NCBI RefSeq assembly: GCF_963921235.1
Contig: NC_086108.1
Coordinates: 84,136,001 to 84,200,000, forward strand
From: Mobula hypostoma
Lineage: Eukaryota
Length of the DNA: 64,000 nucleotides
Reading direction: 5' to 3'
Made by a program: the position numbers and the translations under genes. The notes below the pieces were generated by a model. The model saw only the letters and a program-made list of their open reading frames with translations. It was not told the origin of the DNA and searched no databases. Position 1 is the first letter of the stretch, and every line of letters begins with the position of its first letter. Positions 10,126 to 63,387 of the stretch are shown here, one piece after another.

Positions 10126-12852
10126 CAACGCACACAAAATGCTGGTGGAACACAGCAGGCCAGACAGCATCTATAGGAAGAGGTACAGTCGACGTTTTGG
10201 GGCGAGACCCTTTGTCAGGACTAACTGAAAGAAGAGATAGTAAGAGATTTGAAAGTGGGAGGGGAAGGGGGTGATCCGAAATGATAGGAGAAGACAGGAG
10301 GAGGAGAGATGGAGCCAAGAGCTGGGAAGTTGATTGGCAAAAGGGATATGAGAGCTGAAGAAGGGGGAAGGATCATGGGATGGGAGACCTATGGAGAAAG
10401 AAAGGGGGAGGGGAGCCCAGAGGAAGATGGAGAGCAGGCAAGGAGTGATTGTGAGAGGGACAGAGAAAGAAAAGGGGGGGGGGAGAGCGAGAGAGAGAGA
10501 GAGAGAGGAAATAAATAAATAAGGGATGGGGTAAGAACGGGAGGAGGGCCATTAACGGAAGTTAGAGAAATCAATGTTCATGCCATCAGGTTGGAGACTA
10601 CCCAGACGGAATATAAGGTGTGGTTCCTCCAACCTGAGTGTGGCTTCATCTTGACAGTAGAGGAGGCCACGGATTGACATACCAGAATGGGAATGGGACG
10701 TGGAATTAAAATGTGTGGCCACTTGGAGATCCTGCTTTCTCTGGCGGACAGAGCGTAGGTGTTCAGTAAAACGGTCTCCCAGTCTGTGTCGGGTGTCACC
10801 AATATATAGAAGGCCACACCGGGAACACCGGACACAGTACACACCTTATCCTCGTTATATGCCAGGGATACGTTCCTTGAAGTTGACGCATAATGTGAAT
10901 AATTATTTAAATGGAGAAAATAGGGATGCGTTCCAGAGGGCTTCCTAAATATGTTTTATCTGTAACTTATTCACATTTTTATACCAACACGACACAAAGG
11001 CAGTATTACAAGACAACATTTGTATTACATTTAATCAATTTAAGGCAATATTCAATGTAATAAATCATAGAAAGTTAACATCCTCTGGTGTACAGTACTC
11101 ACCAACAGTGGCAGGTATGTTTGCTCCGGGAGATGAGTGGCTGTTGTGGTGTCGGGCAGCTTTACACGGATAAAGTGGATGGTTGTGGGTCGTCAGGATA
11201 ATATCAAGCACAGCAAGGGGGTGAAGGAAGACTCACAGAACTCTTAGAACTGCCGGCAGCAGCAGATTACAGTGATTTGCATAAAGTGGTGAGGGTTGTT
11301 GGCTTGGCAGCATTTTGTTTTTCAGCATAAATTTGCTCGTAGGGAAGAAGGGTTGACGGCAGGGAACGACTGAAATGCTGACTCATGTTCTAAACTTGGG
11401 TCCATGTCCATCGCCATTTGTGCCAAGTGTTCTGACTTCCACCATTCCCTCACCGTCGGTAAACTCCCAGGATTTTCAAAATCGTCTGTTGCTTACAGCA
11501 TCTGAGAGACAGTTCGCGGTAAAAAAATACCCACGCCTTGAATGTGGATTACACCTTGGTCGAGTGGTTGAATCAGTGATGTTGTGTTAGGCAGCAGGAA
11601 ACGCACTGTTATGTTAGGATCAATGCTGTCCAAATGTTTAGGATGGGCTGGCACATTGTCAAGCAACAAAAGAACTTTAAAGGCAAGATTCTGTTCCTGG
11701 CAGTAACGTCGCAGAGCTGTGTTACCTTCAGCTGATGTCGCGCTGTTTATAATTTCCAACGTTTTTTCAAGTGTTAAAGCGGTTCTCTGCCGCTCAGCTG
11801 ACAGTCCAAGACATAACATCGGACGCTTAGGAAGCATAGTTAAATATTTCAAGCACAAAATCACTGCACCGTAGGTAAAACCAACAAAAGTTTAAGATCG
11901 CGCATCCACACCTTGCCAAAACCAATGCAAGAGTGGCGGGAGTGAAATTGTGAGGCGCCCACACATGACTTGTATTGGCAGGAAAGCAGTGCTCCTCACA
12001 TAACTGTGAATTTTGGATGCATATAACGAGACGTTGGTAGAAATAGGTTCCTCGCGTAACTGTGAATCCGCATAGTCTGAAGACGCATATAACGAGGATA
12101 GGGTGTATAGGGTGCCGACTCACAGGTGAAATGTCACCTCACCTGGAAGAACTGTCTGGGGCCCTGAATGGTGGTGAGGGAGGAAGTGTAAGGGCAGGTG
12201 TAGCACTTGTTCCGCTTACAAGGATAAGTACCGAGAGGGAGATCGGTGGGAAGGGATGCGGGGGACGAATGAACAAGGGAGTTGCGTAGGGAGCAATCCA
12301 TGTGGAAAGCAGAAAGGTGGGGAGGGAAAGATGTGCTTGGTGGTGGGGTCTGGTTGGAGGTGACGGAAGTTACGGAGAATAATGTGTTAGACCCGGAGGC
12401 TGGTGGGGTGGTAGGTGAGGACAAGGGGAACCCTATCCCTAGTGGGGTGGTGGGAGGATGGGGTGAGAGCAGATGTGCGTGAAATGGGAGAGATGCATTT
12501 GAGAGCAGAGTTGATGGTGGAGGAAGGGAAGCCCCTTTCTTTAAAAAAAGGAAGACATCTCCTTCGTCCTGGAATGAAAAGTCTCCTCCTGAGAGCAGAT
12601 GTGGCGGAGACGGAGGAATTGCGAGAAGGGGACAGCATTTTTGTAAGAAACAGGGTGGAAAGAGGAATAGTCCAGGTAACTGTGAGAGTCAGTAGGCTTA
12701 TAGTAGACATCACTAGATAAGCTGTCTCCAGAGATAGAGACAGAAAGATCAAGAAATGGGAGGGAGGTGTCGGATATGGACCAGGTAAATTTGAGGGCAA
12801 GGGGAAAGTTGGAGGCAAAGTTAATGAAGTCAATGAGCTCAACATGCTCGTT
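10126..12852 (-). mobile_element. Penelope-like element, 5'-truncated: RT thumb, Cys-rich linker, GIY-YIG endonuclease and 3' end; interrupted by a Tigger element
   Basis: LPFLDLSV...VYYKPTDSHSYLDYSSFHP...SQFLRLRHIC, then CKRNKCYTC, then YCVRCSRCGLLYIGDTRHRLGDRFTEH...HFN...GMN. A 10-bp direct repeat aactttggag flanks it at 10116-10125 and 12853-12862. Confidence 0.92.
10842..12105 (-). mobile_element. Internally deleted Tigger/pogo-type DNA transposon nested in the PLE
   Basis: 21-bp TIRs caccttatcctcgttatatgc / gcatataacgaggatagggtg, followed by TA on the right. DDE_1 motifs KVLLLLDNVPAHP and PNTTSLIQPLDQGVI are fused to an N-terminal LTLEKTLEII. Confidence 0.9.
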
Positions 12853-13545
12853 AACTTTGGAGATAACGTTAGAAATTTATTTTTCTGAGCTGCACATTAA
12901 GCATTTCTTAGATCAAAGCAAGAGTTGGAATAAAAACATACTTACTGAAATATACTGTGCAAAAATTATCCTTGGTTTCCTATTCATAAAAAGTTGCACT
13001 TTTAATTTTTTATAATCGATACGGCATAGTGCTCTTTTCACTTCTTAGTAAGTTTCATGAGTCTTATATTAAATATGGCAATTATTCCACTGCTTTAATT
13101 GTTGGATTATTCAAGCTCTTTCATGAAATGATTTAACTCATTACCACTTTTTAAGATCTATTTACATGCAATATGTGCAAACACACACAGACAGAATGCA
13201 AGAGTAGAAACGCAGAGTGGATCTCACTTCTCAGGTTCGCCAGAAACTTGAATGCTAGAAGTGATTAAGACCAAATGTCATTTCTAAATGTTCTAATTGA
13301 TGAAATTAAGTGAGAGCTGATAACAGTACTCACCCTGGAATTAATCGCTGCTCTCATTTAGAAGTCATGAGAGAAAGAGATTTGCTTTGCTAACTAAAAA
13401 ACGAAAGCAAAATTCAAGGGAAAGGAATGCACATCTTGACGGTTTATATTATTCATTCTCAGCTTGTGGGCAACAGAGAAAGAGCCAGTGTTTATTCACC
13501 ACACCAAGCTGCCAAGGAGCTGGCAGTGGCTCCTGCCAGCAACTA

Positions 13546-31842: not shown

Positions 31843-32029
31843 CACTTTTTCTTTATAAACAATGTATTTCAACCATTTAAAATCTTGAGGTTTGAATCCA
31901 GCAAAGACGAATAATGAGTCTTTCTCGTACCGTGCTGGTTTCTGAATAGCACCTTCCGGATATGTTATTCGCAGCGTTGTCTTTGAGCCAACGTCTTTTT
32001 CAAATCCTTTTACTGGAGCTTCATTAAGT
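31843..32029 (-). CDS. ST3GAL3: ST3GAL3 exon, 187 bp, second half of sialylmotif L and downstream catalytic region
   Basis: Acceptor ttattttgcag| and donor |gtaagt. Reads (R)LNEAPVKGFEKDVGSKTTLRITYPEGAIQKPARYEKDSLFVFAGFKPQDFKWLKYIVYKEKV, in frame with the 96-bp exon. Confidence 0.95.
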
Positions 32030-32518
32030 CTGCAAAATAAATTAGCAGAAAGCATACAATATTAGAAAAGAAGTTTCCTTTAACTGTTTTTTCAGACTGT
32101 GCACCCAAAAGCTTACCAAGGCAAGAATAATACTACTTTCCACAACTAACTTCTTATTCATTGCGCTGGACAGGCAACGGTTATCACAATGTTTCAATTT
32201 TACAATTTCTACTTTAAAATACTACTTCAAGCTGCTTCTCAAGATGAATTGAAGCAGGGTTGGCGAGCTTTGCCAAAATTGGCAACAATCTTTTAAAAAT
32301 TCTCTCGCATGCCATGGTAATTTTGAGCAGAAATTATCATTGATTAATGAATTAGTAACAATAATTTATTGAGGAAAAAGGTTGACTCCTGTTGCTTATT
32401 TATGTGTATTCACTGTTTTACCTATTTCAAAAAAAGTATAACATTGAAATAAGTGAAGATTTTAGAAAACCTGATCAAGAATGTTTCATTGTAATCTTTC
32501 AAAAAGACAATTGAAAAA

Positions 32519-32926
32519 TAAGCAACACACATCAAAGTTGCTGGTGAACGCAACAGGTCAGGCAGCACCTCTAGGAAGAGGTACAGTCGACGTTTCAGGC
32601 CGAGACCCTTCGTCAGGACTAACTGAAGGAAGAGATAGTAAGAGATCCCCATCCCCCTCCCACTTTCAAATCTCTTACTAAGTCTTCCTTCAGTTAGTCC
32701 TGACAAAGGGTCCCAGTCTGAAACATCGACTGTACCTCTTCCTAGAGATGCTGCCTGACCTGCTGCATTCACCAGCAATTTTGATGTGTGTGACTGACGA
32801 AGGGTCTCGGCCTGAAGCGTCGACTGTACCTCTTCCTAGAGATGCTGCCTGACCTGCTGCGTTCACCAGCAATTTTGATGTGTGTTGCTTGAATTTCCAG
32901 CATCTGCAGAATTCCTCGTGTTTGCG
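32519..32926. mobile_element. PLE-end cassette: one inverted copy plus two tandem copies (94-nt period), with a 10-bp TSD
   Basis: aattgaaaaa at 32509-32518 and 32927-32936. CTGAC cores at 32700 and 32794 on plus, and a reverse copy at 32585-32620. Confidence 0.9.
32585..32620 (-). ncRNA. Minimal type-I hammerhead ribozyme motif, intact core
   Basis: AGUC CUGACGA AGGGUCUCGGCCU GAAA CGUC GACU. Stem I AGUC/GACU, palindromic ACGU stem III, predicted cut between 32589 and 32588. Confidence 0.8.
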
Positions 32927-35439
32927 AATTGAAAAACAACATCATTTACAAATAGTATTGTTATTTTAACCATTTTCTATCCGAATATTGCTATGTATAC
33001 CAGGTCTGCAAAGATTTCAGAACATATCATACAACTTCACATGTTCTTGCAATTGTCAAGCAGGTGCTAAGCTAGCTTCTGACATTTTCTATGAAAATAT
33101 CTTACTGGTCTTTAGTTGTAAAAAAAATCATTTGCTGCTTTATTTGGCAGTAAAAATGATCAATATACAGTATATATTTTTATTATGGGTCAGCACTGCA
33201 TGCTATGCATCAATAAATTTTTGCGTGTACCATCTTGGGCACATGTACATTAAGTTTGTCACACCTCAAATAAAGAAATTGAGAAATACAAAATAAAATC
33301 TTTGGTTCCATCTTCACAACCTCCCATTGCTTTTCTTTATTCTTTTCTCTGCACTCAGACCCAGCTTTACTCTCACCGGTCTTTTTGTTCTATGCTGATG
33401 TCTCTTCTACAGTTCCCATCATTTTGACATTAATGGTGCCGGAATTTTCATCTCCATCAACAATACTCTTGGACATTTGCATGCACAGCCACTTCTCAAC
33501 CTCTCTGCTTTAAAATAAAACGTTAAAAATCCCTCACCAACCTTTTCTTTCTGCATCGTTTAAGAAGTATTTAGATAAGCAACTGAATCACCAAACTACA
33601 GAAAGTTAAGTGTTTAAAAAATGTGATTAGAATCGATAGGTTTCTGATGGTTAGCATGGACTACTGTTTCTGTGTTACATGATAATATGACTTTCTCTTT
33701 AGATGAGAATATCAAAACTTTCCAGAACAATAAAAATGTCAAAGGCAGAGTAATAAAATAACTATATTTAAATGGTTTCCATTCTAGGCAAACAAAGAAT
33801 AGTTGAATGAAAACAGAGCAAACCCCACAATCACTAGTACATGATTAATGAACCATATTCAACAAATTATTCAGGAAATAATTTTGGGGTTATTGTAACA
33901 CAATTGTATAAATTATTAACAGGGGTCTATTTTAAGTGTAAACGACATAAGGCAAAATGGAATGCATTAGCAATGGGAATGAAAGTAAGCTCAACAAAAC
34001 CGATTACAGTACAAGGCACTGTAGGGCTGACATAAAAATGTTTTTTTAAAATCTAAGTTTCACTTGTTCAGAAAGTTTGGCTTAAATCTCACTCCGGAGA
34101 CTTGTACACAAAATGCAGGTGAAAACTCCATTGCACGATGAGGGAGTTTCTTTTGACAAGTTTTCTGTTCCTTCAGACAGAGATTAAAATAAGTCACAGC
34201 ATTATTTCACAGTGTATTAGCTATCCTCAGTGGTAGTGTCCCTTTGCAATGCTTATTTCTCAACCTCTGACACAAAAAATATTGTTTCTGAGAGCTTTAT
34301 ATAAATATATTTGGTTACAACTTTGATGATATTACAACAGTGCCCATACTTCAAAGCTATTTCACTATTAAATGGCTTGAAACTTAAAGGATATGCCTTC
34401 TCTAGCTCTCATTCCAACAGAAGTGGCTCCAAAATATATAAAAATAATTTTATAAAATGATGAACAGCACTGATAAAGTAGAATTGAACATTTTTTGTAT
34501 ATAATAAAATAGAGAAAAAATTTGATGTAAAAAGTTTGGAAAATATCAAACTGCTCAACAGAAGAAGAATACTCATGCCTTAATTATTAATCCAGAAAGA
34601 AAAAAAATCTGGATTCTACGTAATACTGAGTTAATGTTGCGAAGAATGTGGTAGTTAACATGAGAAATAGTGCATGAAATTGGCATTCAAGCAGCACAGA
34701 CAAAACCTAAAATATTAAAGCTAGGAACTGAAGAACCATATCCCTGATTTCTCAGTTGAAAAAATGTGCATAGACCATGAACGTGGGGAAAAATGAAAAG
34801 TGGGTGTATATTTATATAAACACACCTGTTCAACATTTGCTAAACCTGAATAAATAGGCCACAAAGATAAACAGTGATCACAGAATTTCAGTCTGATCTT
34901 CACTACAGACCAATCATATTTTAAACAACGTCCAAGTTAAGTGATAGGTTTGAATAAAAGAAACATCTTCTATCAATACTTAATAATCCTTTGACTTTTA
35001 GGACAACTCATTGCCAGACCATGTGTCAGCATTTGATAGATAACACAGAAAATTTATTGAAGCTGTGCCATGCAAGGCCAAACAACACTCTATATACTTA
35101 CTTATAGTACTAGAAATAAATGTTCTAGAATGTAAAGCAGCAATAAAATCATTGGACAGGTCTTTTGAAAATACTTCCCTAATCAGTAATTTGTAGCATC
35201 TCTTGGAACAGTGTAATCTTTATTTCTTCAATCGCTCCAATCGTAAGTTTATTTTTAAATGGCTTCAATTATTCATTTATATTATTAGCCAGGGTAATTT
35301 TTGGAATGTGCATTAGAAATGGAGGCAGTTGGAAAAGAAGATGGTGATTGAGTGTTTATTTTTCAACTTCAGATGCCAGCTACAGAAGATACCAATATCT
35401 GAAAGTACCAGCTTCAGCCTAGATAACTTCTTTTGGCAG

Positions 35440-37995
35440 ATTTAATATCACTGGCATATGTCAATACAGTTGTTTTCTGGCAGCAGTAGACTGCAATACA
35501 TAATAACAGAAAAAAACCCACAAATTACAATAAGAAATATATATAAAAATAAATTAAATAAGTGAAAAGAAGTTTTTAAAAAGCAACAGAAGTGAGGTAG
35601 TGTACATGGTTTCATTCAGAACAGTGTCCATTCATGCTCTCTTCTCATTGCCGCCATCTGCAAGAAGGTACAGGAGCCTTAGGATCCACACCACCAGGTT
35701 CAGGAACAGTCATTACCACACAACCATCAGGCTCTTGAACCAGAGGGGATAACTTAACTCACTCCATCACTGAATTGTTCCCATAACCTTAGTGACATAC
35801 CAAGTCTTCTCAAACTTCTAATGAAATATAGCCATTGACATGCCTTCTTTGTAATTGCATCAATATGTTGGGCCCAGGACAGACCTTCAGAGATGTTGAC
35901 ATCCCAGGAACTAGAAACTGCTCACCCTTTCCACTGCTGATCCCTTGGTGAGGACTGGTTCCCTTGACTTCCTCTTCCTGAAGTCCACAAACAATTCCTT
36001 GTGTTGCAACACCACTCAATCCAGCTGATCTATATTGCTCCTGTACACCTCCTCATCACCATCTGAAATTCTGCCAACAATAGATGTGTCATCGTAAATT
36101 TATAAATGGTATTTGAGCCACACATTTGTGGGTGTAGAAAGAATAGAGCAGTGGATTAAGCACACATCCTTGAGGTGTGCCAGTGCTGATTGACAGCAAA
36201 GAGGAGATGTTATTTCAGAAGTGCTCTGACTATAGTCTCCCAGAGAGTAAGTCAAGGATCCAGTTGCAGAAGGAGGGATAGAAGCCCAGGTTTAAAGCTT
36301 GTTGTTTAGAACTGAGAGTATGATTGTGATGAATGCCGAGCTGTAGTCAATAAACAGCAGCCTAATGTATTGTCCAGGTGATCCAAGGCAGAGTAGGTAG
36401 CCAATGAGATTGCATTCACTGTACACCTATTGTGTCGACAGGCGAATTGCAGCAGGTCAAGGTCCTTGCTTAGGCAGGAGTTGATTCTAGCCATGACCAA
36501 CCTCTCAAGGCACTTCATCGCAGTAGATGTGAGTGCCATTGGGTGACAGACGTTGAGGCCGCTCACCCTGCTCTTCCTGGGCACTGATATGATTGTCGCC
36601 CTTTTGAAAATAGTGGAAACCTCTGACAGCAGCAGTGAGAGACTGAAGATGGCCTTGAACACTTCCGCCAGTTGGTTATCACCGGTTTTCAGAGCTCCAC
36701 CAGGTACACCATCAGGGCCTGACGCCTTGCGAGAGCTCACCTTCTTGAAAGATGTTCTGACATTGGCCTTCAAGGCAGAGAACACAGCGTTACCAGATGC
36801 TGCAGAGATTAGCACAGCTGCAGTTTCAGTCTCCCTTTCAAAGCGTGCATAAAAGGAGTTGAGCTCCTCTGGGAGGGAAGATCACAAGGCCATTACTTGT
36901 ATAAAGAAATGGGATGCAAACCCTGCCAAAATTGATGTGCATTTGATTCTGTCTCTAACTTCAACAGGAATTGTTTGTTCTCTCTTACAATAGCCTTACA
37001 CAGGTTGTACTGGGACTTTTTGTATAGTTCTGGATCATTGGTCTTGAATGCCACAGATCTAGCTCTCAGCAGACCACGAATTTTCTACTTCATCCACGGC
37101 TATTGGTTTGGGTTTATATGGTATGTTCTGGAAGGCAAACTTACCCACACAGATCTCAATCAAGTCGTTGACATCTGTGCTGCATTGATTCAGATTAGAT
37201 GAATCCCTGAATATTAGCTAGTCTACCAAATGAGTGCTCTCCACCTCCCTTGACCTTACCTTCTTGGTCCTCATCACTGGTGCTTTGGTCTTTAGTCTCT
37301 GCCTATATGCACAGCTAGAATTACAGTTCGGTGACTGGACATACCAAATTGGGCGTGGTAAATGTTTTTCGTGTTGGTATAACAGTGGTCAAGTGTTTTG
37401 GCTCCTCTGGTTCCACGGGTCATATTTTGATGGGTCATGCCGTAGGGTCTTGGCTCGAAACTTCGACTGTACTTTTCTCCATAGATGCTGCCTGGCCTGC
37501 TAAGTTCCTCCAGCATTTTGTGTGCGTTGCTCAGATTTCCAGCATCTGCAGATTTCTCCTATTTGTGATGTTGGTGGTAGCTGTTCAGAGTCTTCAAGCT
37601 GGCCTGGTTGAAATCTCCCACCATGATAGGAAAGGCATCTGGGTACGATGCTTTCTGATTGCTAAGCATGGTGCTCAGCTCCTCCAGTGCCTGCTTGACT
37701 CCGGAATATACACCACTACTTTGACGATGGCAAAAACTCCCTCAGCAGGTAAAAAGGGCAATACTTAATCGCTAGATGTTCCAAGTCAGGTGAAGAGGAT
37801 TGAGACAGAATCACCATGTCTGTGCACCACGATGAATTTTTCATAAAGCATACTCCACCCCACCCCCCCCACCATTAAAAGACTCAGTTGTCCTGTCTTT
37901 GGGGAGAATGGTGGAGCCCTCAGGCTGCAGCGGTGTCTAAAACGGTGGGGGAGAGGCATGTTTCTGTGAAGCAAAGTACTTAGCAGTCTCTGATG
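35440..37995 (-). mobile_element. Degraded Rex1/Babar-like LINE (endonuclease plus RT), with a PLE end inserted at about 37435-37565
   Basis: RGAKTLDHCYTN (endonuclease); RKASGPDGVPG, ALTSTAMKCLERLV and LQFACRHNR (RT). Confidence 0.85.
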
Positions 37996-38089
37996 TCCCA
38001 TCTGCTACAGGAATCTTGCACTGAAGTCTTCAGTTTTACTTTCCAAATACTGTACCAGCAGGGAACCTAATAGGAGAGCACAGCTTTCT

Positions 38090-38400
38090 TCCATGGCCTT
38101 CCATCCTCTCCTATTATATTCCCCCTTCTCCAGCCCTGTATCTCTTTCTCCAATCAACTTCCCAAACTCTTTACTTCACCATTCCCCCTCCCAGTTTCAC
38201 TTATCACCTTGTATTTCTCCCTCCCCTCCCCCCACCTTTAGACTCTACTCATCTTTTTTTCCCCAGTCCTATTGTAGGGTCTTGGCCTGAAATGTCAACT
38301 GTACTCTTTTCCATAAATGGCTGCCTGGCTTGTTGAGTTCCTCCAGCATTATGTGTGTGTTGTTTAGATTTCCAGCACCTGCAGATTTTCTCTTGTTTGA
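38090..38400 (+). mobile_element. PLE 3' end, decayed hammerhead
   Basis: Pyrimidine tract, then cagtcctattgtagggtcttggcctgaaatgtcaactg...gctgcctggcttgttgagttcctccagc. Confidence 0.8.
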
Positions 38401-38884
38401 GCTTCATTTACTCAGTAAGCAAGATATTTTGCAAACATAAAACATGAAAGAAAGCAGTTTACAGAAAATATTTTGCTTAATACAAATGAAAGCTTAAATT
38501 GAAAACCAGTGCCCAAATATTCAAATAAAAAAATGTAGACACCAAGTTACAAGCACTGGTAATGTGATAATATACAACTGAGCTTCACTCTATCAATATA
38601 TAGAAATACAATTTATTTGTTGCAACAGTAAAAAAAAACTTAAGAACTAGCTTTCCCCACAGCTTCAACTGTTAATACAAAAATAAAATATAGCAGATAC
38701 AAGAATTCTAAAATAAAAATAGAACATGCTGCAAAAAGTGAGCTAGTCAGACAGCATCTTTCGAGATACTGTCAACCATTAATTCTGTATTAACCTCTAA
38801 TCACTACTAACATCCTTTGAGAGCAGAAACCTACATGCCAATCACAAATACAAAGTTCTAGTTACTGAAATTCGAGTTATTGGT

Positions 38885-40455
38885 AATTGAGGAGACTGAA
38901 GTCCTTTGGAGTACGCAGGTCTACCCTTCACATTTCCTACCAGTCTGTTGTTGCCAGTACAACCTTGTATGTGGTGGTGAGTTGGGGCAGTGGCATAAAC
39001 ATGGGTGATTCCAACAGGCTTAATAAACTGATTAGAAAGCCTGGCTCTGTAATAGGAGTCAAACTGGACACACTGGAAGCTGTAGACAAAGAACCCTCCA
39101 GAAACTCCTAGCAATTCTGGACAATGTTTCTTACCCTCTGCATGCCACCTTGGCTGAACAAAGGAGTGTTTTTAGTAATAGACTAAGACAACTTTACTGC
39201 TCCAAAGAGTGATAAGAAGTCATTCTTACTCTCGGCCAATAAGCTCTATAATGAGTCAACATAGCCAGGGAAATGAAGACCCCTTCAGTTAGACTGTTAT
39301 TAACCACTGTTTACTAGACCTCTATTTAAGACCATAAGACATAGCTGTGGAATTGGCCATTCAGCCCATCAAGTCTGCTCTGCCCTTCCATCATGGCTGA
39401 TCCCGGATCCCACACAACCCCATACACCTGCCTTCTCACCCTATCCTTTGATGCCCTGACTGATCAGGAAACGATCAACGATCAACTTGCGCCTTAAATA
39501 TGCCCACGGACTTGGCCTCCACTGCAGTCTGTGGCAGAGCATTCTACAGATTTACTACTCGCTGGCTAAAAAAAAAAAATCCCCCTTCCTCTGTTCTAAA
39601 GGGTGGCCCCTCAATTTTGAGGCTGTGCCCTCTAGTTCTGGAAACATGCTCTTCACATCCACCCAATCTAGTCCATTCAACACTCAGTAGGTTTCAGTGA
39701 GATCCCACCCCGCCACATTCTTCTAAATTCCAGTGAGTACAGGCCCAAAGCTGTCAAACACTCCTCATATGTCAACCCCTTTATTCCTGGCTCTGTTTAC
39801 CACACCCTGCTATTGCAGACATGCTATGCAATACTACCATAACTTCTTGTCTGGATGATGTGAATGTACACCTATTACTGTATAATATTACGATAATTCT
39901 TGCAGTACCATCTTACCAATGTGAACTTGGAAATCTTGTAATCTTTGACCTGTAAATGTTGTACATATTAGTTTTTATTTTTTTTATTCTTTCTTACTTC
40001 TTTTCCAATATTTGTATATAAGACCATAAGATAAAGGAGCAGAAGTCGGCCATTCGGCCCATCGAGTCTGCTCCGCCATTTTATCATGAGCTGATCCATT
40101 CTCCCATTTAGTCCCACTCCCCCGCCTTCTCACCATTACCTTTGATGCCCTGGCTACTCAGATACCTATCAATCTCTGCCTTAAATACACCCAATGACTT
40201 GACCTCCACTGCCGCCCGTGGCAACAAATTCCATAGATTCACCACCCTCTAGCTAAAAATATTTCTTCACAACTCTGCTCTGAATGGGCGCCCTCTAATC
40301 CTTAAGTCATGCCCTCTTGTACTATACTCTCCCAACATGGGAAACAACTTTGTCACATCCACTCTGTCCATGCCTTTCAACATATATCTCTGCACTTGCA
40401 ATGCTACTGTGACAATGTAATTTCCTTTTCGACCAATAAAGCATCTGTCTATCTA
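38885..40455 (+). mobile_element. Rex1-like LINE 3' part with two nested minus-strand CR1 3' fragments (39329-39790 and 40020-40382)
   Basis: RRLKSFGV...YQSVVAS...RLNKLIRK. The first insert is flanked by ctctattta/ctctgttta. Tail aataaagcatctgtctatcta. Confidence 0.8.
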
Positions 40456-40644
40456 ATTTACAGTAAGGTTTCAAAGTTGCATTCAACCAACTATTGGGTA
40501 GGAGATTGAACCAGTTAAATTACGAAACTTTTCCCCAGCCCCAGCCAGATGGTCCAAAAGTTCTTGTCAGATGCAATTCCTGGACATTCAATATCTCCAA
40601 AGATTGAAAACATGACATAAATACGACTATTTCAAGTTAATGAG

Positions 40645-40845
40645 CAGCCGGCTGGTGGTGTAGTGATATCTGTATCGGACTTCAAGGCAATTGGTCTTGA
40701 GTTCGAACTTGGCCGTTCTTTTCCATCAGTGCTGGGTTGAGAATTGAGCCAGCAACACATCCTTGTAAAAAACTGATAGAAAATGCTAAAAAAAATGGAA
40801 GGGTTGCCACTAGATATGCCACAAGGTGTGGAAAGGAACAGAAAG
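40645..40845 (+). mobile_element. tRNA-derived SINE
   Basis: A-box-like tggtgtagtg and B-box gagttcgaac. The core tttccatc-gtg--gggttgag is shared with the copy at 43458-43782. Confidence 0.65.
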
Positions 40846-41716
40846 TTAATGAAACCCTCATCAGGGTACTAATTATATCAATAGCAATGACACAAGTTTG
40901 TGCTTGTAAGCACAATATATCCTCCATATATTTAATTATGATAAAAATACAAACGTAACTTGCAGCATATTTTTAATGTTAAAGAGAAGGATATTTAGCC
41001 ATCTGGATTACAGGGTGGAGAGCTGAGGGCAAATAAAAACTAAATATGAAAATATGAACACAGACATTTTTAAGTTTTGTATGAAACTGTAAACAAGGCC
41101 ATGTGTGCAGGTGAAACTATCTCTCAGTAATTCTAAGGATCAAATCCATGGTAGATATTTTGATTCAAATCACGCAGACCATAGAATTCTCCAGCTTTCG
41201 TATTCTTTTCATTGTAAACTAAGCACGAATGTATTACTCACATATGTGAACAATGAAGACAGCAATTAAGAGAGACTCAAATATCTTTCATGCAACAGCG
41301 TGTCAGACGTGTAAAATAGAGCAATCAGGGGACCTCATTGTAAATACATGAATGTAGAGTATTAAAATAGAAACACTCATATTTGTATTTTGATCCATTA
41401 ATCAAATGTGAGCATTTACAGTAATCATTATTTCAAATAGTCAAAGTTGCTTTATCATTATTTAGACTCCAGTGTCTGATATAAGCATGAAACCTTTCAA
41501 ACATTGTACAATACCATTCATCCTCTCAAAGTATCAAACAATGGGAGTAATTTCTATCACTACCATAACTCAACACTTGCTCATTTGTACCTAAGATACC
41601 TTAATTGTCAGTAATATCATAATTCTCTTTCTTATACTGTGCTCAGTCCAGTCTTCTCCCTACTCCCTTCTGTTGAGAAAATGCAAACCTGAAAAAAATA
41701 AGCTGACTGACCAATT

Positions 41717-42170
41717 TAAAAGTTGCTGGTGAACGCAGCAGGCCAGGCAGCATCTCTAGGAAGAGGTACAGTCGACGTTTCGGGCTGAGACCCTTCATCA
41801 GGACTAACTGAAAGAAAAGCTAGTAAGAGACTTGAAAGTGGGAGGGGGAGGGGGAGATCCGAAATGATAGGAGAGGACAGGAGGGTGAGGAATGGAGCCA
41901 AGAGCTGGACAGTTGATTGGCAAAAGGGATATGAGAGGACCATGGGACAGGAGGCCTAGGGAGAAAGAAAGGGGGAGGGGAGAAGCCCAGAGGGTGGGCA
42001 AGGGGTATAGTGAGAGGGACAGAGGGAGAAAAAGGCAAGAGAGAAAAAGAATGTGTGTGTATATAAATAAATAAATATCCCATCTGTTATTTATATATTT
42101 ATATACCCGTCTGTTTTTATATATACACACACACACACACACATTCTTTTTCTCTCTCTCTCCTTTTCTC
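41717..42170 (-). mobile_element. PLE 3' end, with a short inverted segment at about 42095-42170
   Basis: Close match to 10126-10520. Confidence 0.88.
41770..41805 (-). ncRNA. Minimal type-I hammerhead ribozyme motif, intact core
   Basis: AGUC CUGAUGA A GGGU-CUCA-GCCC GAAA CGUC GACU. Predicted cut between 41774 and 41773. Confidence 0.8.
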
Positions 42171-42589
42171 TAAAGTTATCCACTACCCTATCCACAAATT
42201 CACTTCTATAATACTCAGCTCTCTTCAGACTGCCTCCAAATTCAGACAGTTCAGGAGTCTCAATAAATTACTGACTTACTTTCAAGCCCCAAAGTTTGTC
42301 GACTCCATTTTTCACAAAAGTTCATCTGGCTATGCAAATTATCATTTCCTCTCCTGATGCATTCTAAATATATGGTCCGAACACAGAAGACCACATGTGA
42401 ACCACTCCATTTGGATTTCAAATAACATCCTTCTGAGATAGTGTTACAAATCACATCCTATCTGACTGTGATTAAGGTAATCGACCCATTTTCAGCTTTC
42501 TTAGTCAGTAGCCTTCAAAATATACAGTATAACTTTATTATTCTTCGATGACACCATTATTATTGTTGGACAGATAAATATATGGAAGT

Positions 42590-42837
42590 AACAACAGGAA
42601 GTCTGCAGATGCTGGAAACTCAAGCAACATACATCAAAGTTGCTGGTGAACGCAGCAGGCCAAGCAGCATCTGTAGGAAGAGGTGCAGTCGACATTTCAG
42701 GCCGAGACCCTTCGTCAGGACTAACTGAAGGAAGAGTGAGTAAGGGATTTGAAAGTTTCAAATTCCTTACTCACTCTTCCTTCAGTTAGTCCTGACGAAG
42801 GGTCTCGGCCTGAAACGTCGACTGCACCTCTTCCTAC
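42590..42837. mobile_element. PLE-end fold-back cassette with a 14-bp TSD
   Basis: aaatatatggaagt at 42576-42589 and 42838-42851. Inverted arms of 83 bp around G42755. Confidence 0.92.
42788..42823 (+). ncRNA. Minimal type-I hammerhead ribozyme motif, intact core; mirror copy at 42687-42722 on minus has GAAAUGUC
   Basis: AGTC CTGACGA AGGGTCTCGGCCT GAAA CGTC GACT. Predicted cut after C42819. Confidence 0.8.
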
Positions 42838-43204
42838 AAATATATGGAAGTGTTTGTTTCAGTCCTCTTCAAATTATCTCCCTTAACTATCCTTGAATTA
42901 GCACTGCTTCCTACACTCCTTTTCTGCAAATTTCCAAGCTGCTGTAAATTTAGCATGGACCACACATCAGTCTCTTCCCTTTCCTTCCTTTTATATTGCC
43001 ACCTCTATTTCAGGGAATAGTATAGCAACCAATATCCAACATAACTTCTATTTTCACCTGTGTCTTGTTAAGATTCTGTCCCATAGTCACAGTTTTCCCA
43101 CTTTATCTGCTCTGTAGATGAGACTTTTCATCCCAGTGTATTTTGGGTATCTTCCCTGTTCTTTAGCTGGGATCTGTCATTGAGAGACTCAGCAACATTT
43201 TGAG

Positions 43205-43397
43205 GACAACATTCCAAGTTCATGGGTATATTTAAGGTGGAAGTTGACAGGTTCTTGATTGGGCAGGGAATCAAAGGATATGGCATGAAGGCAGGTGTAC
43301 AAGGTTGAGTGGGATCCGGGATCAGCCATGATGGAATGGCAGAGTAGACTCAATGGGCTGAATGGTCTAACTTTGCTCCTATGTCTTATGATCTTAA
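43205..43397 (+). mobile_element. CR1 3'-end fragment
   Basis: Ends gggctgaatggtctaactttgctcctatgtcttatgatctta. Confidence 0.7.
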
Positions 43398-43457
43398 GGT
43401 TTTCTCAGTTCTCCAGTGCTAATGAGGGTCCATAACCTGAAAAGTATCTTTTTATTT

Positions 43458-43782
43458 GTGTGTGCCTGCGTGCATGCGAGTCAATGCGTGTGCGTGCATG
43501 CACGCCTGTGCATGCGCATCTGTGTGTCCGTGCGTGCATCTGTGATGACGTCCATTTCATGGCTTTTGACAAGGTGTGGAGCGAGAGAGAGACTGTGATA
43601 CGTCACTCCTCACACAGACATTTTCACAGTATTTTCCCTTTATTTTACGAGGCCAAGTTGTGATCTCGACACTCAACCCGACACAGATGGAAAGTGTACT
43701 TGGGAGCGGACCGGACTAGTTTCGAACCCGGGAACCTCCGCTCCCGGGTCCGGCGCCGATGTCGTTGTGCCACCAGCCAGCC
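43458..43782 (-). mobile_element. tRNA-derived SINE with an alternating purine-pyrimidine tail, inserted in a decayed PLE end
   Basis: Minus strand ggctggctggtggcacaacg (A box) ... gggttcgaaac (B box). Flanks aagtatctttt/aagtattttct. Confidence 0.75.
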
Positions 43783-44544
43783 CCAGAGAAGTATTTTCTA
43801 TTTCTCTCTTCATTAATGTCGCTTGATCTGCAGCGTCCTTTCAACCTTTTCTGTTCTTGCCTTGGATTTTCAGCACCTGCAGTTTTTTTGACCCAACCTC
43901 CCCTCCCTTGTTCCGTTGGGTCGTTGCCTTGTTCTGTTCATTGGCAAAAATCAGCTGTAACACCTTCCTTTCCATTTCTGCTCCACAACTTGTGATGTTC
44001 CTTGTTGCTCTTTGTTGGATTGCCAGAGGAACCACTACCATCATACAATTCTTCCTCACCACCACCTCTTCCAACCCTGGTATTTTGGGAAGAAAGCCAT
44101 TATTTTCAATTCAATCCAAAAGCCATGGCTCTATTTCTTCTGGAATTCACTATTCCATTCCACTCTGACCAGCCTCACATTTTCCACTTACCATTAAAGT
44201 CATCCAAATTTTACTATATGTATCCTAAATTTCCTGTTACTTTCACCCATCATATCTTTGCTTTATCTACGCTGGCTTATGGCTGAATCATGCCTCAGTA
44301 CTAAAAATCTTGTCCTTGTTTTCAAATCCCTCCATAGACATTACCTCTGCAATCACCTACAAATCTGCAATCTTATCTGTGCTCCTTCAAACAAGGTCTC
44401 AGTACATTCTCAGTTTTAAATGATTCTACCACTGGCAATCATGCATTCAACTGTTGACATCGTAGGATCTAGAATTCCTTCCCTAAACCACGATGCCTCT
44501 TTTCCCTACTTTATGACTCTTAGATCAGTATTCAATTATACTCG

Positions 44545-45165
44545 TGCCCAAGAGAGTGTGGTGACCTGCCTTAATGACCATTGCCCACTTACATCAACAG
44601 CAATGAAATGTTTTGAGAGGCCAGTAATGAAATATATCAGCTCCTTCCTGAGAGGTGACTTGGATCCTCTCCAATTTGTCTAATGGAGCAATAGGTTCAC
44701 AACAGATGCCACCTCATTGGCCCTTCCCTCAATCCTGGAACATCTGGGCAGTAAAGATGCATGCATCAGGATACTGATCCTGATGCTTATCAACTACAGC
44801 TCAGCATTCAATACCATCATCCCCTCAAAATTAATCAATAAGCTCCAAGACCTTGGCCTCAAAACCTCCATGTGCAACTGGATTCTGAATTTCATCATTT
44901 GCAGACCCCAGTCAGTTTAGATTGGCAATAACATCTCCTCCACAATCTCCATAAGCATAGGTGCACCACAAAGCTGTGTGCTTAGCCCCCTGCTCTATTC
45001 GCTTAACACCTATGACTGTGTAGCTAAGCACAGCTCCAATCCCATATTCAAGTTTGCTAATTGCACTATTGTTGTGGGCCGAATCCAAGGTGGTGATGAA
45101 TCAGCCTACAGGAAGGAGATTGAAATTTGGTTAGTGCTGTCATATCAACAACCTCTCACTCAAAA
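44545..45165 (+). mobile_element. Rex1-like RT fragment
   Basis: [42 protein letters not shown]. Confidence 0.85.
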
Positions 45166-45174
45166 CTTCTATAG

Positions 45175-46830
45175 ATAACATTGCTTTCATATCTGCTCTC
45201 ACCACTTCCTCTGGGAGTGTGTTCCAGGCACCTAGTGTTCTCTGTGTAAAACAAATGCTTTGTAACTCTCCTTTAAACTTCCCCCCTCTATCTTAAAGCT
45301 GTGTCATCTGGTATTTGATATTAATACCCTGGGAAAAAAGTCCCTGACTAGCTGCCCTATCCACATCTCTCATAATTTTGTATACTTCTATCAGGTAGCC
45401 CTGATGCTCCAGAGAAAACTACCCAATTTTGTCTAACCTCTCCTTCTGGCTTTCTCATCCTGGTGAACCTCCTTTGCACCCTCTTCAAAGTATGTAGATC
45501 CTTCCTGCAATGCAGGAAACCAGAACCACATGCAATACTCCAAATGTGGCCTAACCAAAGTCTTACACAGCTGGAACATGATCTGCCAAATTTTATACTG
45601 AATTCCCTGAGTAATAAAGACAAGTATGCAATACATCTTCATTACTTTCCTGTCTACTGTTTAACCACTTTCAGGGAGTGACAGACTTGCACGCCAAGAT
45701 CACTCTGAATATCAATCTCCTAAAAGTCCTGCCATTTATTGTATACCTCTCATAGCAAGTAAAGCACCTCACACTTGTCTGGATTAAACTTAATTTACCA
45801 TTTATTTCTTTGCCAATCAACCAGTCTATATCCTGCTGAATCCTTTGATAACCTTTCTCACTGTCCACAACTCTGTCAATTTTTATATCATTTGCAATCT
45901 TACTAATTAGCCTACCTAAATTTTTGTCCAAATCATTTATATACAATCACAAGTAAAAGAGGTCTCAGCACTAAGAATGCCACTGGTCACAGACCTCCAG
46001 TCAGACTAATACCCTTCCAACACTTTCCTCCTTATTCCTTGGCCATGTCAATTTTGAATCTAAACTACTAAGTCTCCGTGGAGCTGGTCTGCCTTAATCT
46101 TCTCAAATAGTCTACCATGAGGGATCTTGTAAAATGCATTAAAATCCATGTGGACAATATCCTCTTCCCTACCGTTTCTTCAAAATTCTCATTCAAGTTT
46201 GCAAGAGATCAGCCCCTCCTGCACAAAGTCATGTTGAATATCCCTAATAAAATAATACTTTTCCAGATGTGGACAGATCCAATACCTAAGAATCTTTTTG
46301 AATTATGTCACTGCTACTGATTCATAGCTCAAGGGTCTGTAATTTCCTAGTTTGCCTCTACTGCCCTTCTTAAACAGAGGAACAACGTTGTCCAGTGCTC
46401 TGGGACTTTGGCCGTGGCTAAAGAGGATGCAAATATCTCTGTCAGGGCCCCAGCAATTTCCTCTCTTGCCTCCCTCAATAACCTGGCTAGGTTCCATCGT
46501 GTCCAAGTGATTTATTCACCTTGATGTTCTTCAAGAGACCCACAAACTTCTCTCACTTCGGATCAACATTAGAGTTAGATGTAAGACAAGAAAATCTATA
46601 AATGATATAAATAAATAAATATTGTGAAAACAAAGGAATAATGAGATAGGGTTCATGCGCAAGAACGCCAGCACACTGCTTCTGATCTCGCTATCCTCCA
46701 CATCCTTCCCCTTGGTGAAAACCAATGTGAAATGCTTGTCCAAATCTACGGTGCCAGCACAACTTCCTTTCTTTGGCCTCACTGGCCTACCCTCTCCCTT
46801 GTTCGGGATTCTCTTTAATCCCACTCCACA
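45175..46830 (-). mobile_element. Degraded CR1 ORF2 and 3' fragment
   Basis: VVPLFKKGSRGKLGNYRP, YINDLD...ISKIAND, LVRPHLEYC. Confidence 0.85.
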
Positions 46831-48519
46831 ATGACATTTCGTGGCCCATTTTCAAAGATTCAAAGTAAATTTATTATCAAACTGTGGATGCAGTACACAA
46901 CGCTGAGATTCTTCTTCCCACAGACAGCCACGAAACAAAGAAACATCATGGAACCCGTTCAAAAAAAACATAAAATACCCAACGTGCAAAAAGAACAAAT
47001 CATGCAAACAGTAAAAAATGAGCCAAAAGTACACAGAATATAAAACATCAGACCACAGCGTCTTTGAAACAGTCTGGGAATGTTCAATTCAGCTCAGTTT
47101 AGTGCTATGTCATTCATTGAGTGCAGGCCGCAGTGCTGATGATAATATATCAGACCATCTTCTCTAGAACCTCCTGAGAGGGCTCAGTCTGAATTTTATT
47201 TGGCCAGTTTTGAAGGGCTCCAGTCATTTTACTACATCAAACACATTATATAAATGTTATTGCTGAATCATAATCAAGTATCACCTTCACATAAAATTAG
47301 GCTTATTGGTATTGTCAAATGGATGAGAGACAGCAAAAGTTGTTCAGCCCCAATATTACGGTCATGCATTATATCCTTTGAAATTACTCATTATTTGTAA
47401 TTAAGCACTTAAAGGTCAAGCAGAGTTGGTTGCAGAACAGCTGGACTTTTAGTTAAAGATCTGCCTAGGTTGTCTACCACCTGATGGCATGAAATTTAAT
47501 TCTCCAGTTTCCCTCCTTTATTCCTTTTCTCTCCCCTCCTGATCTATCCCATCCATCCTATGACTACCTTTCACACCCTGTTTCTTTCCTCATCCTCTGA
47601 TTGTTCCTATTTGCTTACTGCACTCCATCTAATTTGGTTCCATACTCTACCTTTCTTTCCTATCACATTCCATCTTTTACAGCCTCTTATTCCATCACCT
47701 ATACCCACTCAGCCAATGCTGCTGTTGCCATTCCCCTCTCTTCCATCTGCTTATCACCCCTCTTGGATCTACCTATCACCTTTCAGTTCCTGTTCTACCC
47801 TTTGCCTGCACATCTTTCAGTGCTGGTGAAGTGTCTCATCCCAAAACACTGGCTGTCCACTTCCCTCCACAGAAATTACCTGACCTGCTGTTCCTCCAGT
47901 ATTATGATCTTAGTTTAAGCTTCACCTTCCTTTCCTATCACATTATTCAGTTAGTCAGGTTTCTACTTGGTCAGATCTATTACTAAGATGAAGAGCTAGG
48001 AGAATATGAATTTCAGAATGGAAGCAAATGGAAATCATGTGAGTAGCTTGGTATGTGCATTTGCTACCAGGCACTCTCTGATACCAACAAGGGTGACTGC
48101 AAAGAGGTAATGAATAAATGAGAAAGATCAAAAGCAAAGTAAACTTGTTTATCCACAAGAAAAATAAAATTATATTGTGACCATTTCTCATTCCTAATTC
48201 ACTGATGCTGATAAAAAATTATCACAAGTAAACAAACAATGGGCTAAATGCCATTACTGTCAAATTCTGAGCCATTACAGAATGTGAAAATATACTCACA
48301 GGGCAGTCAATTGAATCCCAATTACATTTTATTGTGGCTTCTTTTAAAAATAATAATAAGCCGGGACAAAGTTGACATTTTGTTTTCTTTTCTCTGCAGT
48401 ATGTTGTTATAGTGGGATAGAGCAAGCTTTCCCTTCCTCAAAGTTCTTTTTCATGTTTTAAAAATAACTGCAGTCATCTATTGGTAGAATTTTGCCCAGA
48501 AGAAAAAACATTGCACTAT

Positions 48520-48815
48520 GAAACACACACAATATGCTGGAGGAACTCAGCAGGCCAGGCTGAGTACAGTCAATGTTTCGGGCTGTGACCCTTCGGCAGA
48601 ACCAAATTTTTTCTGAAATACTGTTCTTCCATTCTATCGTACTTATTTCTTATACTTTACAAATATCACACGCCAACAAAGGTCCTGATGAAGGGTCTCG
48701 GCCCAAGACGTCAACTGTACTTTTTTCCATAGATGCTGCCTGGCCTGCTGAGTACCTCCAGCATTTTGTTTATGTTGCTTGGATTTCCAGCATCTGCAGA
48801 TTTTCTTTTTGTTTG
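48520..48815. mobile_element. Inverted pair of PLE ends, decayed hammerheads
   Basis: Minus copy at 48520-48600; plus copy at 48681-48815 (cctgatgaagggtctcggcccaagacgtcaactg). Confidence 0.8.
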
Positions 48816-49204
48816 TTACTGCACCACGAAACCTGGTATTCCATTAGTATCCTCATTCCAAACTTTTCAATGTCTGGAATAAAGTTATATACTATGTAAA
48901 TTCACTTATTTTATTTTGGCTGGCAATTCTTTTCTCACTTACTCTTACATTTATCATGTCTACTCCTTTCTCCCCAGACTCTAGCTGTTTAAGAACATCA
49001 ACTTTCAGTAATTTCCATAAGCTAGCAATCTACAAGTTAAAGTTCACTGCTTCAGACCGTCCTGTCCAACTGCTTTGATCTTCACAATGCTGGTTACACC
49101 ATTATCCTACCACTGTCTAATGTATTGTTAGGGGACTTGGTTTCATTATTTTTTTACATGAGGTTCTTATGCTGTTAATACATGCAGCAAAAAATAACTA
49201 TCTG

Positions 49205-49345
49205 AGAACACAAGTGACTTTTGCAGATGCTGGAAATCTTGAGGAGCATGCACAAAATGCTGGAGGAACTCAGCAAGTCAGGCAACATCTATGGAAGTGA
49301 ATAAACAGTCGATGTTTTGGGCCAAGACCTTGCTTCTGGAGTCCT
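49205..49345 (-). mobile_element. PLE 3' end, decayed
   Basis: gcagatgctggaaatc...aaaatgctggaggaactcagcaagtcaggcaacatctatgg. Confidence 0.75.
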
Positions 49346-49895
49346 GGACCAAGTTCTATTGCTTCATTTGTTTCCAGGCATTATATTACAAGATTATAGC
49401 ATTTGTGTGTCGAGAATATTTTGAAAGTCATGAGCCACTGCAAGAGTGTAATAATTAAAAACTAGTGAAAATTGATCAAGACACCCAAAAGAAGATAGTT
49501 TGATCTCCAAAATATAAAACATTTAATGGTGAAATTGAATGAAAAAAGGTGAAGACCAGAAAGCTACAACAAAGGAGAAAATGGAAGAATTAAATAGAAA
49601 AACTTCACCATTTGTCTCCAACATTTACAGCTTTGCTGTTGCTGCTCTGTTCGGTTGTTTCTGTTTTGAAAACCTTGTTGTCCTTGAAAGACTCAATGTC
49701 TTTCATGCATATTCTACTGATAAAGTTATTCTTCCCTAACTCAAAACTTTTTAACATCCACATTTCCATGGCTCACTAACCATTATAACATCAAAACTAT
49801 CAACAATTTCTCAGGCCATTTTTGAATAGATCTGATCTCATTACAAAAATATGGGAAATACAAAGCACCATCATATAGATTTAACAAAAACTCAC

Positions 49896-49991
49896 CTTAT
49901 GACAACATCATAGTCATCAATTCTTGACCCAAGAGATTTGTTGGCTACTATTCCTCCATTGCCCATGATGATGCAGCGCTTGCAGCTTAAA
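49896..49991 (-). CDS. ST3GAL3: ST3GAL3 exon, 96 bp, first half of sialylmotif L
   Basis: Acceptor ctctttcag| and donor |gtgag. Reads (S)LSCKRCIIMGNGGIVANKSLGSRIDDYDVVI(R), a classic GT29 sialylmotif L. Not present in the ORF track. Confidence 0.93.
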
Positions 49992-63323: not shown

Positions 63324-63387
63324 CTATCCAGATATGAAGTCAAAGTGTACTGTTTTGTAACCCCCAGTATTTTCTGTATAACTGCTT
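63324..63387 (-). CDS. ST3GAL3: ST3GAL3-type sialyltransferase internal exon, 64 bp
   Basis: Acceptor ttgtttcttgcag| and donor |gtaagt. Reads (E)AVIQKILGVTKQYTLTSYLD(S), resembling the ST3Gal III segment before sialylmotif L. The phase-2 end AG joins the first T of the next exon to give Ser. Confidence 0.85.

What the first reader, a model, noticed from the sequence alone, without database searches (positions are those of the whole stretch)
41770..41805. Intact hammerhead ribozyme motif, sense in the ST3GAL3 pre-mRNA, within a common PLE-end repeat
Seen: the short repeat scattered through this window (more than a dozen copies) is the 3' end of the PLE at 10126-12852. This copy has every hammerhead core base: CUGAUGA, a GC-rich stem II, GAAA, the GUC triplet, and stem I AGUC/GACU. 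Stem III is only the palindrome ACGU. Established: PLEs carry minimal hammerheads that cleave efficiently only as dimers through such a palindromic stem III. Inference: this copy is transcribed in the intron with no adjacent antisense hammerhead arm, so it is the best candidate for real intronic self-cleavage.
Basis: partly seen in the sequence, partly recalled or inferred. Interest (0 to 1): 0.75.

Follow-up and report, generated by a model that had tools for sequence, protein, structure and literature searches.

The report
Young Penelope hammerhead in ray intron
An undamaged copy of a tiny self-cutting RNA motif (minimal hammerhead), a kind already described for Penelope jumping genes, sits in the gene's own direction inside an ST3GAL3 intron of what is likely a manta-type ray; it is likely intact only because it was inserted recently, and likely cuts little or nothing because such motifs need a partner copy, so it is real but ordinary.

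Summary
41770-41805 (-) is a complete minimal type I hammerhead, sense within a 17.9-kb ST3GAL3 intron (exons identical in protein to Mobula birostris). It lies at the end of a 5'-truncated Penelope-like element (PLE) with a Neptune/Nematis-type linker and fits the 2014 min-HHR consensus. It is the best preserved of 16 motif copies in the window.

The inference of real intronic cleavage is not supported. Published min-HHRs do not cut as monomers and cut poorly as dimers. The two nearest sense copies with an intact core are predicted to be locked in hairpins, so this copy has no free partner. The monomer is predicted to fold its own core shut. A relative about 5% diverged carries other sequence at this site, so the copy is likely young rather than conserved. 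Among window copies the core decays no slower than the rest, with no compensatory changes and no strand bias. Cleavage itself was not testable here.

The scan has noted this same kind of feature many times on other DNA, in this genome too. New member of a known kind; interest 0.1.

The parts
41770..41805 (-). Minimal type I hammerhead motif, all core bases present; predicted scissile bond 41774/41773
   Evidence: consensus in PMC4209133 Fig. S3
41716..42172 (-). The insertion that carries it: 5'-truncated PLE end (about 41718-42075, no coding sequence), then a short inverted duplicate (about 42076-42172)
   Evidence: flanks joined by other sequence in run X18
32030..49895 (-). Host ST3GAL3 intron, 17,866 nt; the motif is 8.1 kb from the 5' and 9.7 kb from the 3' splice site
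49896..49991 (-). ST3GAL3 exon upstream of the motif (96 nt, AG/GT bounded)
31843..32029 (-). ST3GAL3 exon downstream of the motif (187 nt; Pfam PF00777, E 4e-17)
63324..63387 (-). Further upstream ST3GAL3 exon (64 nt)
42576..42837 (.). Younger inverted pair of PLE ends with a 14-bp target duplication; sense motif 42687-42722 is predicted to be fully paired with its antisense arm
32520..32930 (.). Inverted cluster of three PLE ends; sense motif 32585-32620 has an intact core and adjoins an antisense arm
10126..12860 (-). Longest family member in the window: 5'-truncated, broken PLE (RT C-terminal part, CX4CxxC linker, GIY-YIG with CxxC, 3' region, hammerhead with two core changes at 10187-10222), split by a DNA transposon at 10845-12108

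Best explanation
This is the intact minimal hammerhead at the end of a truncated Penelope-like retroelement copy in an ST3GAL3 intron; it is likely intact because the insertion is young, and it likely cuts the pre-mRNA rarely or never because it would need a second copy or the element's protein. How the motif works (from the literature, not shown here): two copies pair through ACGU and swap stem I strands, so that each core cuts the other copy after GUC; in the active element this is thought to process the tandem transcript. Shown here: the motif, its strand, its place in a PLE end, the lack of a tandem partner, and other sequence at this site in a relative. Predicted: the monomer pairs G5-G8 with C15.2-C17 and closes its core; both intact sense neighbours sit in long hairpins. 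Inferred: the motif is kept by selection in the active master elements and decays neutrally once inserted.
For: Fit to the min-HHR consensus, including the extra base after A9, G10.1-C11.1 and palindromic 15.2/16.2. Parent element with GIY-YIG (Pfam E 0.00078, 20.1 bits, below the 22.6 cut-off) and RT C-terminal look-alikes (Atlas 0.97, PF26215 on 73% of the top cluster). Family is very abundant: 135,790 contigs of run X1 laid on 41200-43100. 11 of 16 motif copies have core damage; non-CpG core positions differ at 17 of 144, other non-CpG motif positions at 19 of 269 (p 0.14). No two-sided change in 10 pairs over 15 copies. 7 sense and 9 antisense copies (p 0.80), intact core in 3 sense and 2 antisense. 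Core-closing helix has pair probabilities 0.95-0.97 in the 36-mer, and the open-core fold costs 2.6-5.7 kcal/mol. 42687-42722 pairs with its own arm with probability 1.0. Published assays: monomer none, dimer low; protein needed; 1 of 9 Xenopus retrozyme dimers cut.
Against: No cleavage or RNA-end data exist for this locus. Nearest-neighbour models ignore hammerhead tertiary contacts and penalise every open core, so the energy gaps are upper estimates; the core-closing helix falls to 0.24-0.34 once 50-200 nt of flank are added. The decay and strand counts rest on 16 copies and have little power. The orthologous-site result rests on one contig in X18 and one in X11 whose middle letters I could not see, and the tool skips 42108-42172. 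The family is so abundant in nuclear RNA that partners in trans cannot be excluded. The motif at 42687-42722 is transcribed before its arm's partner geometry is known in vivo; folding during transcription was not modelled.
Confidence: 0.85

Rival explanations
1. Low-level cleavage in trans: this copy pairs with another intact copy of the family from any nascent RNA, or is folded by the PLE protein, and a small share of ST3GAL3 pre-mRNA is cut.
For: Stem I and ACGU are shared across copies, so most intact copies could pair. The family is heavily represented in the two runs guessed to be RNA. Protein-assisted cleavage was shown for the Anolis PLE hammerhead. A fast engineered hammerhead in an intron lowers mRNA up to 20-fold in zebrafish.
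Against: The double-hammerhead fold is predicted at -14.7 kcal/mol against -20.2 for two folded monomers and -23.4 for the best inactive duplex. No strand bias among window copies. No reads ended at the site in Anolis RNA-seq.
Confidence: 0.1
2. Cleavage in cis through a double hammerhead with the sense copy 917 nt upstream (42687-42722) or 9.2 kb downstream (32585-32620).
For: Both have an intact core and the same stem I; a crude ideal-chain estimate gives about 8 micromolar and 0.3 micromolar local concentration.
Against: The upstream copy's antisense arm is transcribed first and adjoins it; duplex -166 kcal/mol, pairing probability 1.0. It has U at 15.2. Heterodimer folds are weaker still (-10.3 and -12.1). 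The upstream pair is absent in runs X6 and X18.
Confidence: 0.03
3. A domesticated intronic ribozyme that tunes ST3GAL3 splicing or level, like the conserved amniote intronic hammerheads.
For: Sense, intronic, core intact; precedent for conserved intronic hammerheads in RECK, CTCL and DTNB.
Against: Other sequence at the site in a relative about 5% diverged; no stable stem III; no Rfam hammerhead match at gathering or at E<=10; the rest of the PLE end is retained at ordinary repeat identity.
Confidence: 0.02

Closest known systems
Minimal hammerheads (min-HHR) in pLTRs of metazoan PLEs, including fish Xena, Poseidon and Neptune (Cervera and De la Pena 2014, PMC4209133)
   Same: Type I, CUGANGA plus one extra base, G10.1-C11.1, no loop 3, palindromic 15.2/16.2, short stem I, near the 3' end of truncated PLEs, mostly single dispersed copies, some in opposite strands close together.
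   Different: Stem II is at the short end (4 bp). No cartilaginous fish is among the 56 motifs of their Fig. S3 as I read it.
Poseidon hammerhead of Anolis (PAc; Frangieh et al. 2024, PMC11167929)
   Same: Hammerhead at the pLTR end, some tens of bases before the insertion end; dispensable for insertion in vitro.
   Different: The ray element has the CX4CxxC linker that Penelope/Poseidon lack; no protein-assisted cleavage has been tested for it.
Non-LTR retrozymes of vertebrates (Li et al. 2026, bioRxiv 10.64898/2026.07.22.740005)
   Same: Type I hammerhead of PLE origin, present in the one chondrichthyan genome sampled; monomers are scattered and regarded as inactive offspring.
   Different: Retrozymes are head-to-tail arrays; this copy is a lone truncated PLE end.
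Conserved intronic hammerheads of amniotes (RECK, CTCL, DTNB; reviewed in PMC6155905)
   Same: Type I hammerhead, sense in an intron.
   Different: Those are conserved at one site across birds and mammals and, from recall, have a stable stem III and loop contacts and cut as monomers; this one is lineage-restricted and has neither.

Membership tests
PLE min-HHR (Cervera 2014) | Core CUGANGA, GAAA, NUH | tested here: met
PLE min-HHR (Cervera 2014) | One extra base between A9 and 10.1; G10.1-C11.1 pair | tested here: met
   A at 41794; G41793-C41782 (feature list)
PLE min-HHR (Cervera 2014) | Palindromic 15.2/16.2, no stable helix III, short helix I (type I) | tested here: met
   ACGU 41778-41775; 4-bp stem I
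PLE min-HHR (Cervera 2014) | Located in the terminal repeat of a PLE | tested here: met
   Homologous position 10187-10222, about 330 nt after the GIY-YIG stop and 60 nt before the element end
PLE min-HHR (Cervera 2014) | Compensatory changes within consensus families | tested here: inconclusive
   0 of 10 pairs with a two-sided change in 15 window copies; these are decayed copies of close subfamilies, so none is expected. Contig matches of four other runs often stop at the motif edges
PLE min-HHR (Cervera 2014) | No cleavage as monomer, low cleavage as dimer | not testable with these tools
   Needs an in vitro assay; only folding predictions here
EN+ PLE, Neptune/Nematis type | RT followed by C-terminal GIY-YIG with CxxC between GIY and YIG | tested here: met
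   Translation; Pfam GIY-YIG E 0.00078, under the curated cut-off; RT piece has no Pfam hit but Atlas look-alikes at 0.97
EN+ PLE, Neptune/Nematis type | CX2-5CxxC linker between RT and endonuclease | tested here: met
   CX4CxxC near 12215-12190; definition in PMC8557442
EN+ PLE, Neptune/Nematis type | 5' truncation and adjoining inverted copies | tested here: met
   definition
EN+ PLE, Neptune/Nematis type | RT phylogeny | not tested
   The RT core is missing from the window copy
Domesticated intronic hammerhead (RECK type) | Conserved at the orthologous intronic site | tested here: not met
   Other sequence at the site in X18 and probably X11
Domesticated intronic hammerhead (RECK type) | Stable stem III, match to Rfam hammerhead models | tested here: not met
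Non-LTR retrozyme | Two or more consecutive head-to-tail units each with a hammerhead | tested here: not met
   Nearest same-strand motif is 917 nt away in a separate insertion

The most novel reading that the evidence does not exclude
Ray genomes hold so many intact, mutually compatible minimal hammerheads in introns that copies on different nascent RNAs pair up in trans, or are switched on by the Penelope protein where it is expressed. They would cut host pre-mRNAs such as ST3GAL3, making a genome-wide, transposon-triggered RNA-cleavage layer held off in the monomer by a built-in core-closing helix.
Probability: 0.04. Interest if true: 0.75.

Novelty: new member of a known kind. Interest (0 to 1): 0.1.

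Why it matters
As it stands it matters little: one more copy of a motif found by the thousand in fish and amphibian PLEs. It extends the list to rays, for which my searches found no dedicated description. The open question it touches is what PLE hammerheads do in vivo. A very abundant, recently active family with dated insertions is good material for one genome-wide test: whether intact sense-strand copies are depleted from introns. A single locus cannot answer that. If trans or protein-triggered cleavage were real, a transposon would be cutting host pre-mRNAs at scale.

Tried and rejected
Rfam: no match in the window at gathering score; none to a hammerhead family at E<=10 in 41500-42100. I read this as the models lacking the minimal form (inference), not as evidence against the motif. 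No whole genome is held, so no genome-wide copy count or strand-bias test. Sequencing runs: no RNA holder listed. Two runs guessed to be RNA gave patchy identical cover of the unique flanks (X5 41188-41525, X10 42272-42487); no listed piece bridged flank and motif, and contigs cannot show ends or strand; not used for or against. Summed depths are not copy numbers. Presence of the insertion in organism B (X6) is only suggested: its contig enters the repeat by 27 letters, under the tool's 31-letter standard. Structure search by sequence for the RT piece gave nothing significant. Earlier findings by sequence: none. Lunse et al. 2017 on PLE hammerhead dimers is not held; I saw only its title in a reference list and a review's account. 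My first guess of a Poseidon element was dropped after the linker motif was seen. Five partial nhmmer hits of 21 were left out of the motif counts, and 32793-32879, which lacks stem I, was left out of alignment A1. Supplements of the bioRxiv preprint are closed and may list shark retrozyme families related to this one.

Full report
Observation. The 36 bases at 41770-41805 read on the minus strand as a type I hammerhead: a 4-bp stem I, CUGAUGA, one extra A, a 4-bp stem II that starts with G-C, GAAA, the palindrome ACGU in place of stem III, and C17 at 41774. The exact string occurs once; two more copies lie within 3 mismatches, and none of 100 shuffles gave a match. A loose hammerhead pattern is not enriched (20 against 12.7 expected), the 36-mer has z -1.14, and Rfam gives no hammerhead match. 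What identifies the motif is its fit to the published min-HHR consensus, position by position (PMC4209133: main text parts 1-2 of 4; supplement parts 1-2 of 3).

Host gene. The exon 32029-31843 encodes a Glyco_transf_29 piece whose best relatives are elasmobranch ST3GAL3 proteins. tblastn with 8 of the 120 listed proteins found three minus-strand exons, all identical in protein to P0002, named Mobula birostris ST3GAL3a; splice sites were read. The motif is sense in a 17,866-nt intron. No later exon was found in 1-31842.

Element. The sequence around the motif aligns with the end of the element at 10126-12860. That element is 5'-truncated and broken. It holds an RT C-terminal piece (no Pfam hit; Atlas look-alikes 0.97 with PF26215), a CX4CxxC linker, and a GIY-YIG domain with CxxC between the two motifs (Pfam E 0.00078, under the cut-off). 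By PMC8557442 (passages) this linker marks Neptune and Nematis and is absent from Penelope/Poseidon; no RT tree was made. A DDE_1 transposon splits it at 10845-12108. The insertion that carries our motif, about 41716-42172, has no coding sequence and ends in a short inverted duplicate, a layout described for PLEs.

The family in the window. nhmmer gave 21 hits at E<=1; 16 have a near-complete motif and 5 partial ones were left out. 5 of 16 keep the whole core; only this one also keeps all stem pairs with G10.1-C11.1 and ACGU. It differs from the majority at two positions, both CpG transitions at tolerant sites (N7 and loop II). Three other intact copies have U at 11.1, which can be read as a G-U pair or as an A-U pair in a shifted register, so they are not clearly dead. 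Non-CpG core positions differ at 17 of 144 and other non-CpG motif positions at 19 of 269 (p 0.14): no sign that the core is protected after insertion. No pair shows a two-sided change in 15 copies. Sense and antisense copies number 7 and 9 (p 0.80). These counts are small. In public contigs, many matches begin at 41768 or end at 41805 with unlike sequence beyond (X1: 284 and 202; X18: 2115 and 1437, X11: 1707 and 1200; the two counts need not be the same contigs). I infer related subfamilies that share the hammerhead block and differ in the flanks, which is what selection in active master elements would leave.

Age. In X11 (about 3%) the left-flank contig runs on for 349 unlaid letters. In X6 (18 differences in 1207 flank bases) the contig enters the repeat by 27 letters, which suggests but does not prove presence. 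So the insertion likely arose after the split from organisms C and E and replaced target sequence. The neighbouring inverted pair 42576-42837 is younger: it has a 14-bp target duplication and an empty site in X6 and X18. Intactness is thus explained by youth. Limits: one contig per run, middle letters unseen, 42108-42172 skipped by the tool.

Can it cut? Cervera 2014 saw no activity for a single min-HHR and low activity for dimers and trimers. [quoted passage not shown] The Anolis PLE hammerhead cut only with the element's protein, and no RNA-seq reads ended at the site (PMC11167929, parts 1-2 of 4). 1 of 9 Xenopus retrozyme dimers cut (bioRxiv 10.64898/2026.07.22.740005, parts 1-2 of 5 and passages). 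For this copy the monomer is predicted to pair G5-G8 with C15.2-C17 (0.95-0.97 alone, 0.73 with 25-nt flanks, 0.24-0.34 with longer flanks, where other folds take over); the open-core fold has probability 0.015 to 0.0001. The three other intact copies tested fold the same way. The double hammerhead scores -14.7 kcal/mol against -20.2 for two monomers. These models omit tertiary contacts and are a guide only. In a fold of 42900-41650 the sense neighbour pairs wholly with its own antisense arm and our motif stays free of it. A fast engineered hammerhead in an intron can lower mRNA 20-fold in zebrafish (PMC11856399, passages), so real cleavage would matter; nothing here shows it. RNA data were uninformative.

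Comparison. It works like, and passes the sequence tests for, the min-HHRs of metazoan PLEs. It fails the tests for conserved intronic hammerheads of the RECK type (PMC6155905, passages) and for tandem retrozymes. Six searches found no paper devoted to ray or shark PLE hammerheads; the 2026 preprint includes one chondrichthyan genome, its supplements are closed, and the library lacks most subscription papers, among them Lunse et al. 2017. Earlier notes of this scan describe the same kind of feature at other places in this genome and in other shark or ray genomes; I stated my reading before seeing them and they did not change it.

Verdict. Observation confirmed; interpretation partly supported; new member of a known kind; interest 0.1. 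Main reading 0.85, low-level cleavage in trans or with protein 0.10, in-cis dimer 0.03, domestication 0.02.

Noticed in passing
window 41770-41805, 32585-32620, 42687-42722, 42788-42823: All four intact copies tested are predicted to pair core G5-G8 with C15.2-C17. With C at N7 (the window majority) this helix is fully Watson-Crick, a possible built-in off state of the monomer; many fish min-HHRs in Cervera's Fig. S3 have A at N7 and could not form it.
   Followed up: partly
window 42576-42837: Inverted pair of PLE ends with a 14-bp target duplication, absent (clean empty site) in runs X6 and X18: a very recent insertion, so the family was active lately. It would form a long hairpin in the pre-mRNA.
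   Followed up: partly
window 41716-42172: The insertion seems to have replaced about 390 bases of target sequence rather than duplicated a target site (X18 contig).
   Followed up: partly
window 32520-32930: Three nested PLE ends (one sense, two antisense) about 500 nt upstream of the 3' splice site of the 187-nt exon; a predicted long hairpin and possible A-to-I editing substrate.
   Followed up: no
window 10845-12108: 1264-bp DNA transposon with short terminal inverted repeats and a DDE_1 remnant (pogo/Tigger-like) inserted in the PLE between linker and GIY-YIG.
   Followed up: partly
window 239-2698 (+): LINE with endonuclease and RT in two long open stretches separated by one stop (Pfam Exo_endo_phos_2 and RVT_1): a fairly young copy.
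   Followed up: no
window 24366-25232 (-); also 13811-14278, 60625-61077, 62398-62865: Tc1-type transposase piece of 288 aa; the other three frames look like Tc1 remnants by eye only.
   Followed up: no
window 61569-62126 (+): Open frame matching PF09004 (ALKBH8_N), probably the C-terminal part of a LINE RT remnant.
   Followed up: no
window 41768 and 41805 (contig loose ends): Thousands of contigs from other ray runs stop matching at the edges of the hammerhead, pointing to a sister subfamily with the same motif and a different tail.
   Followed up: partly
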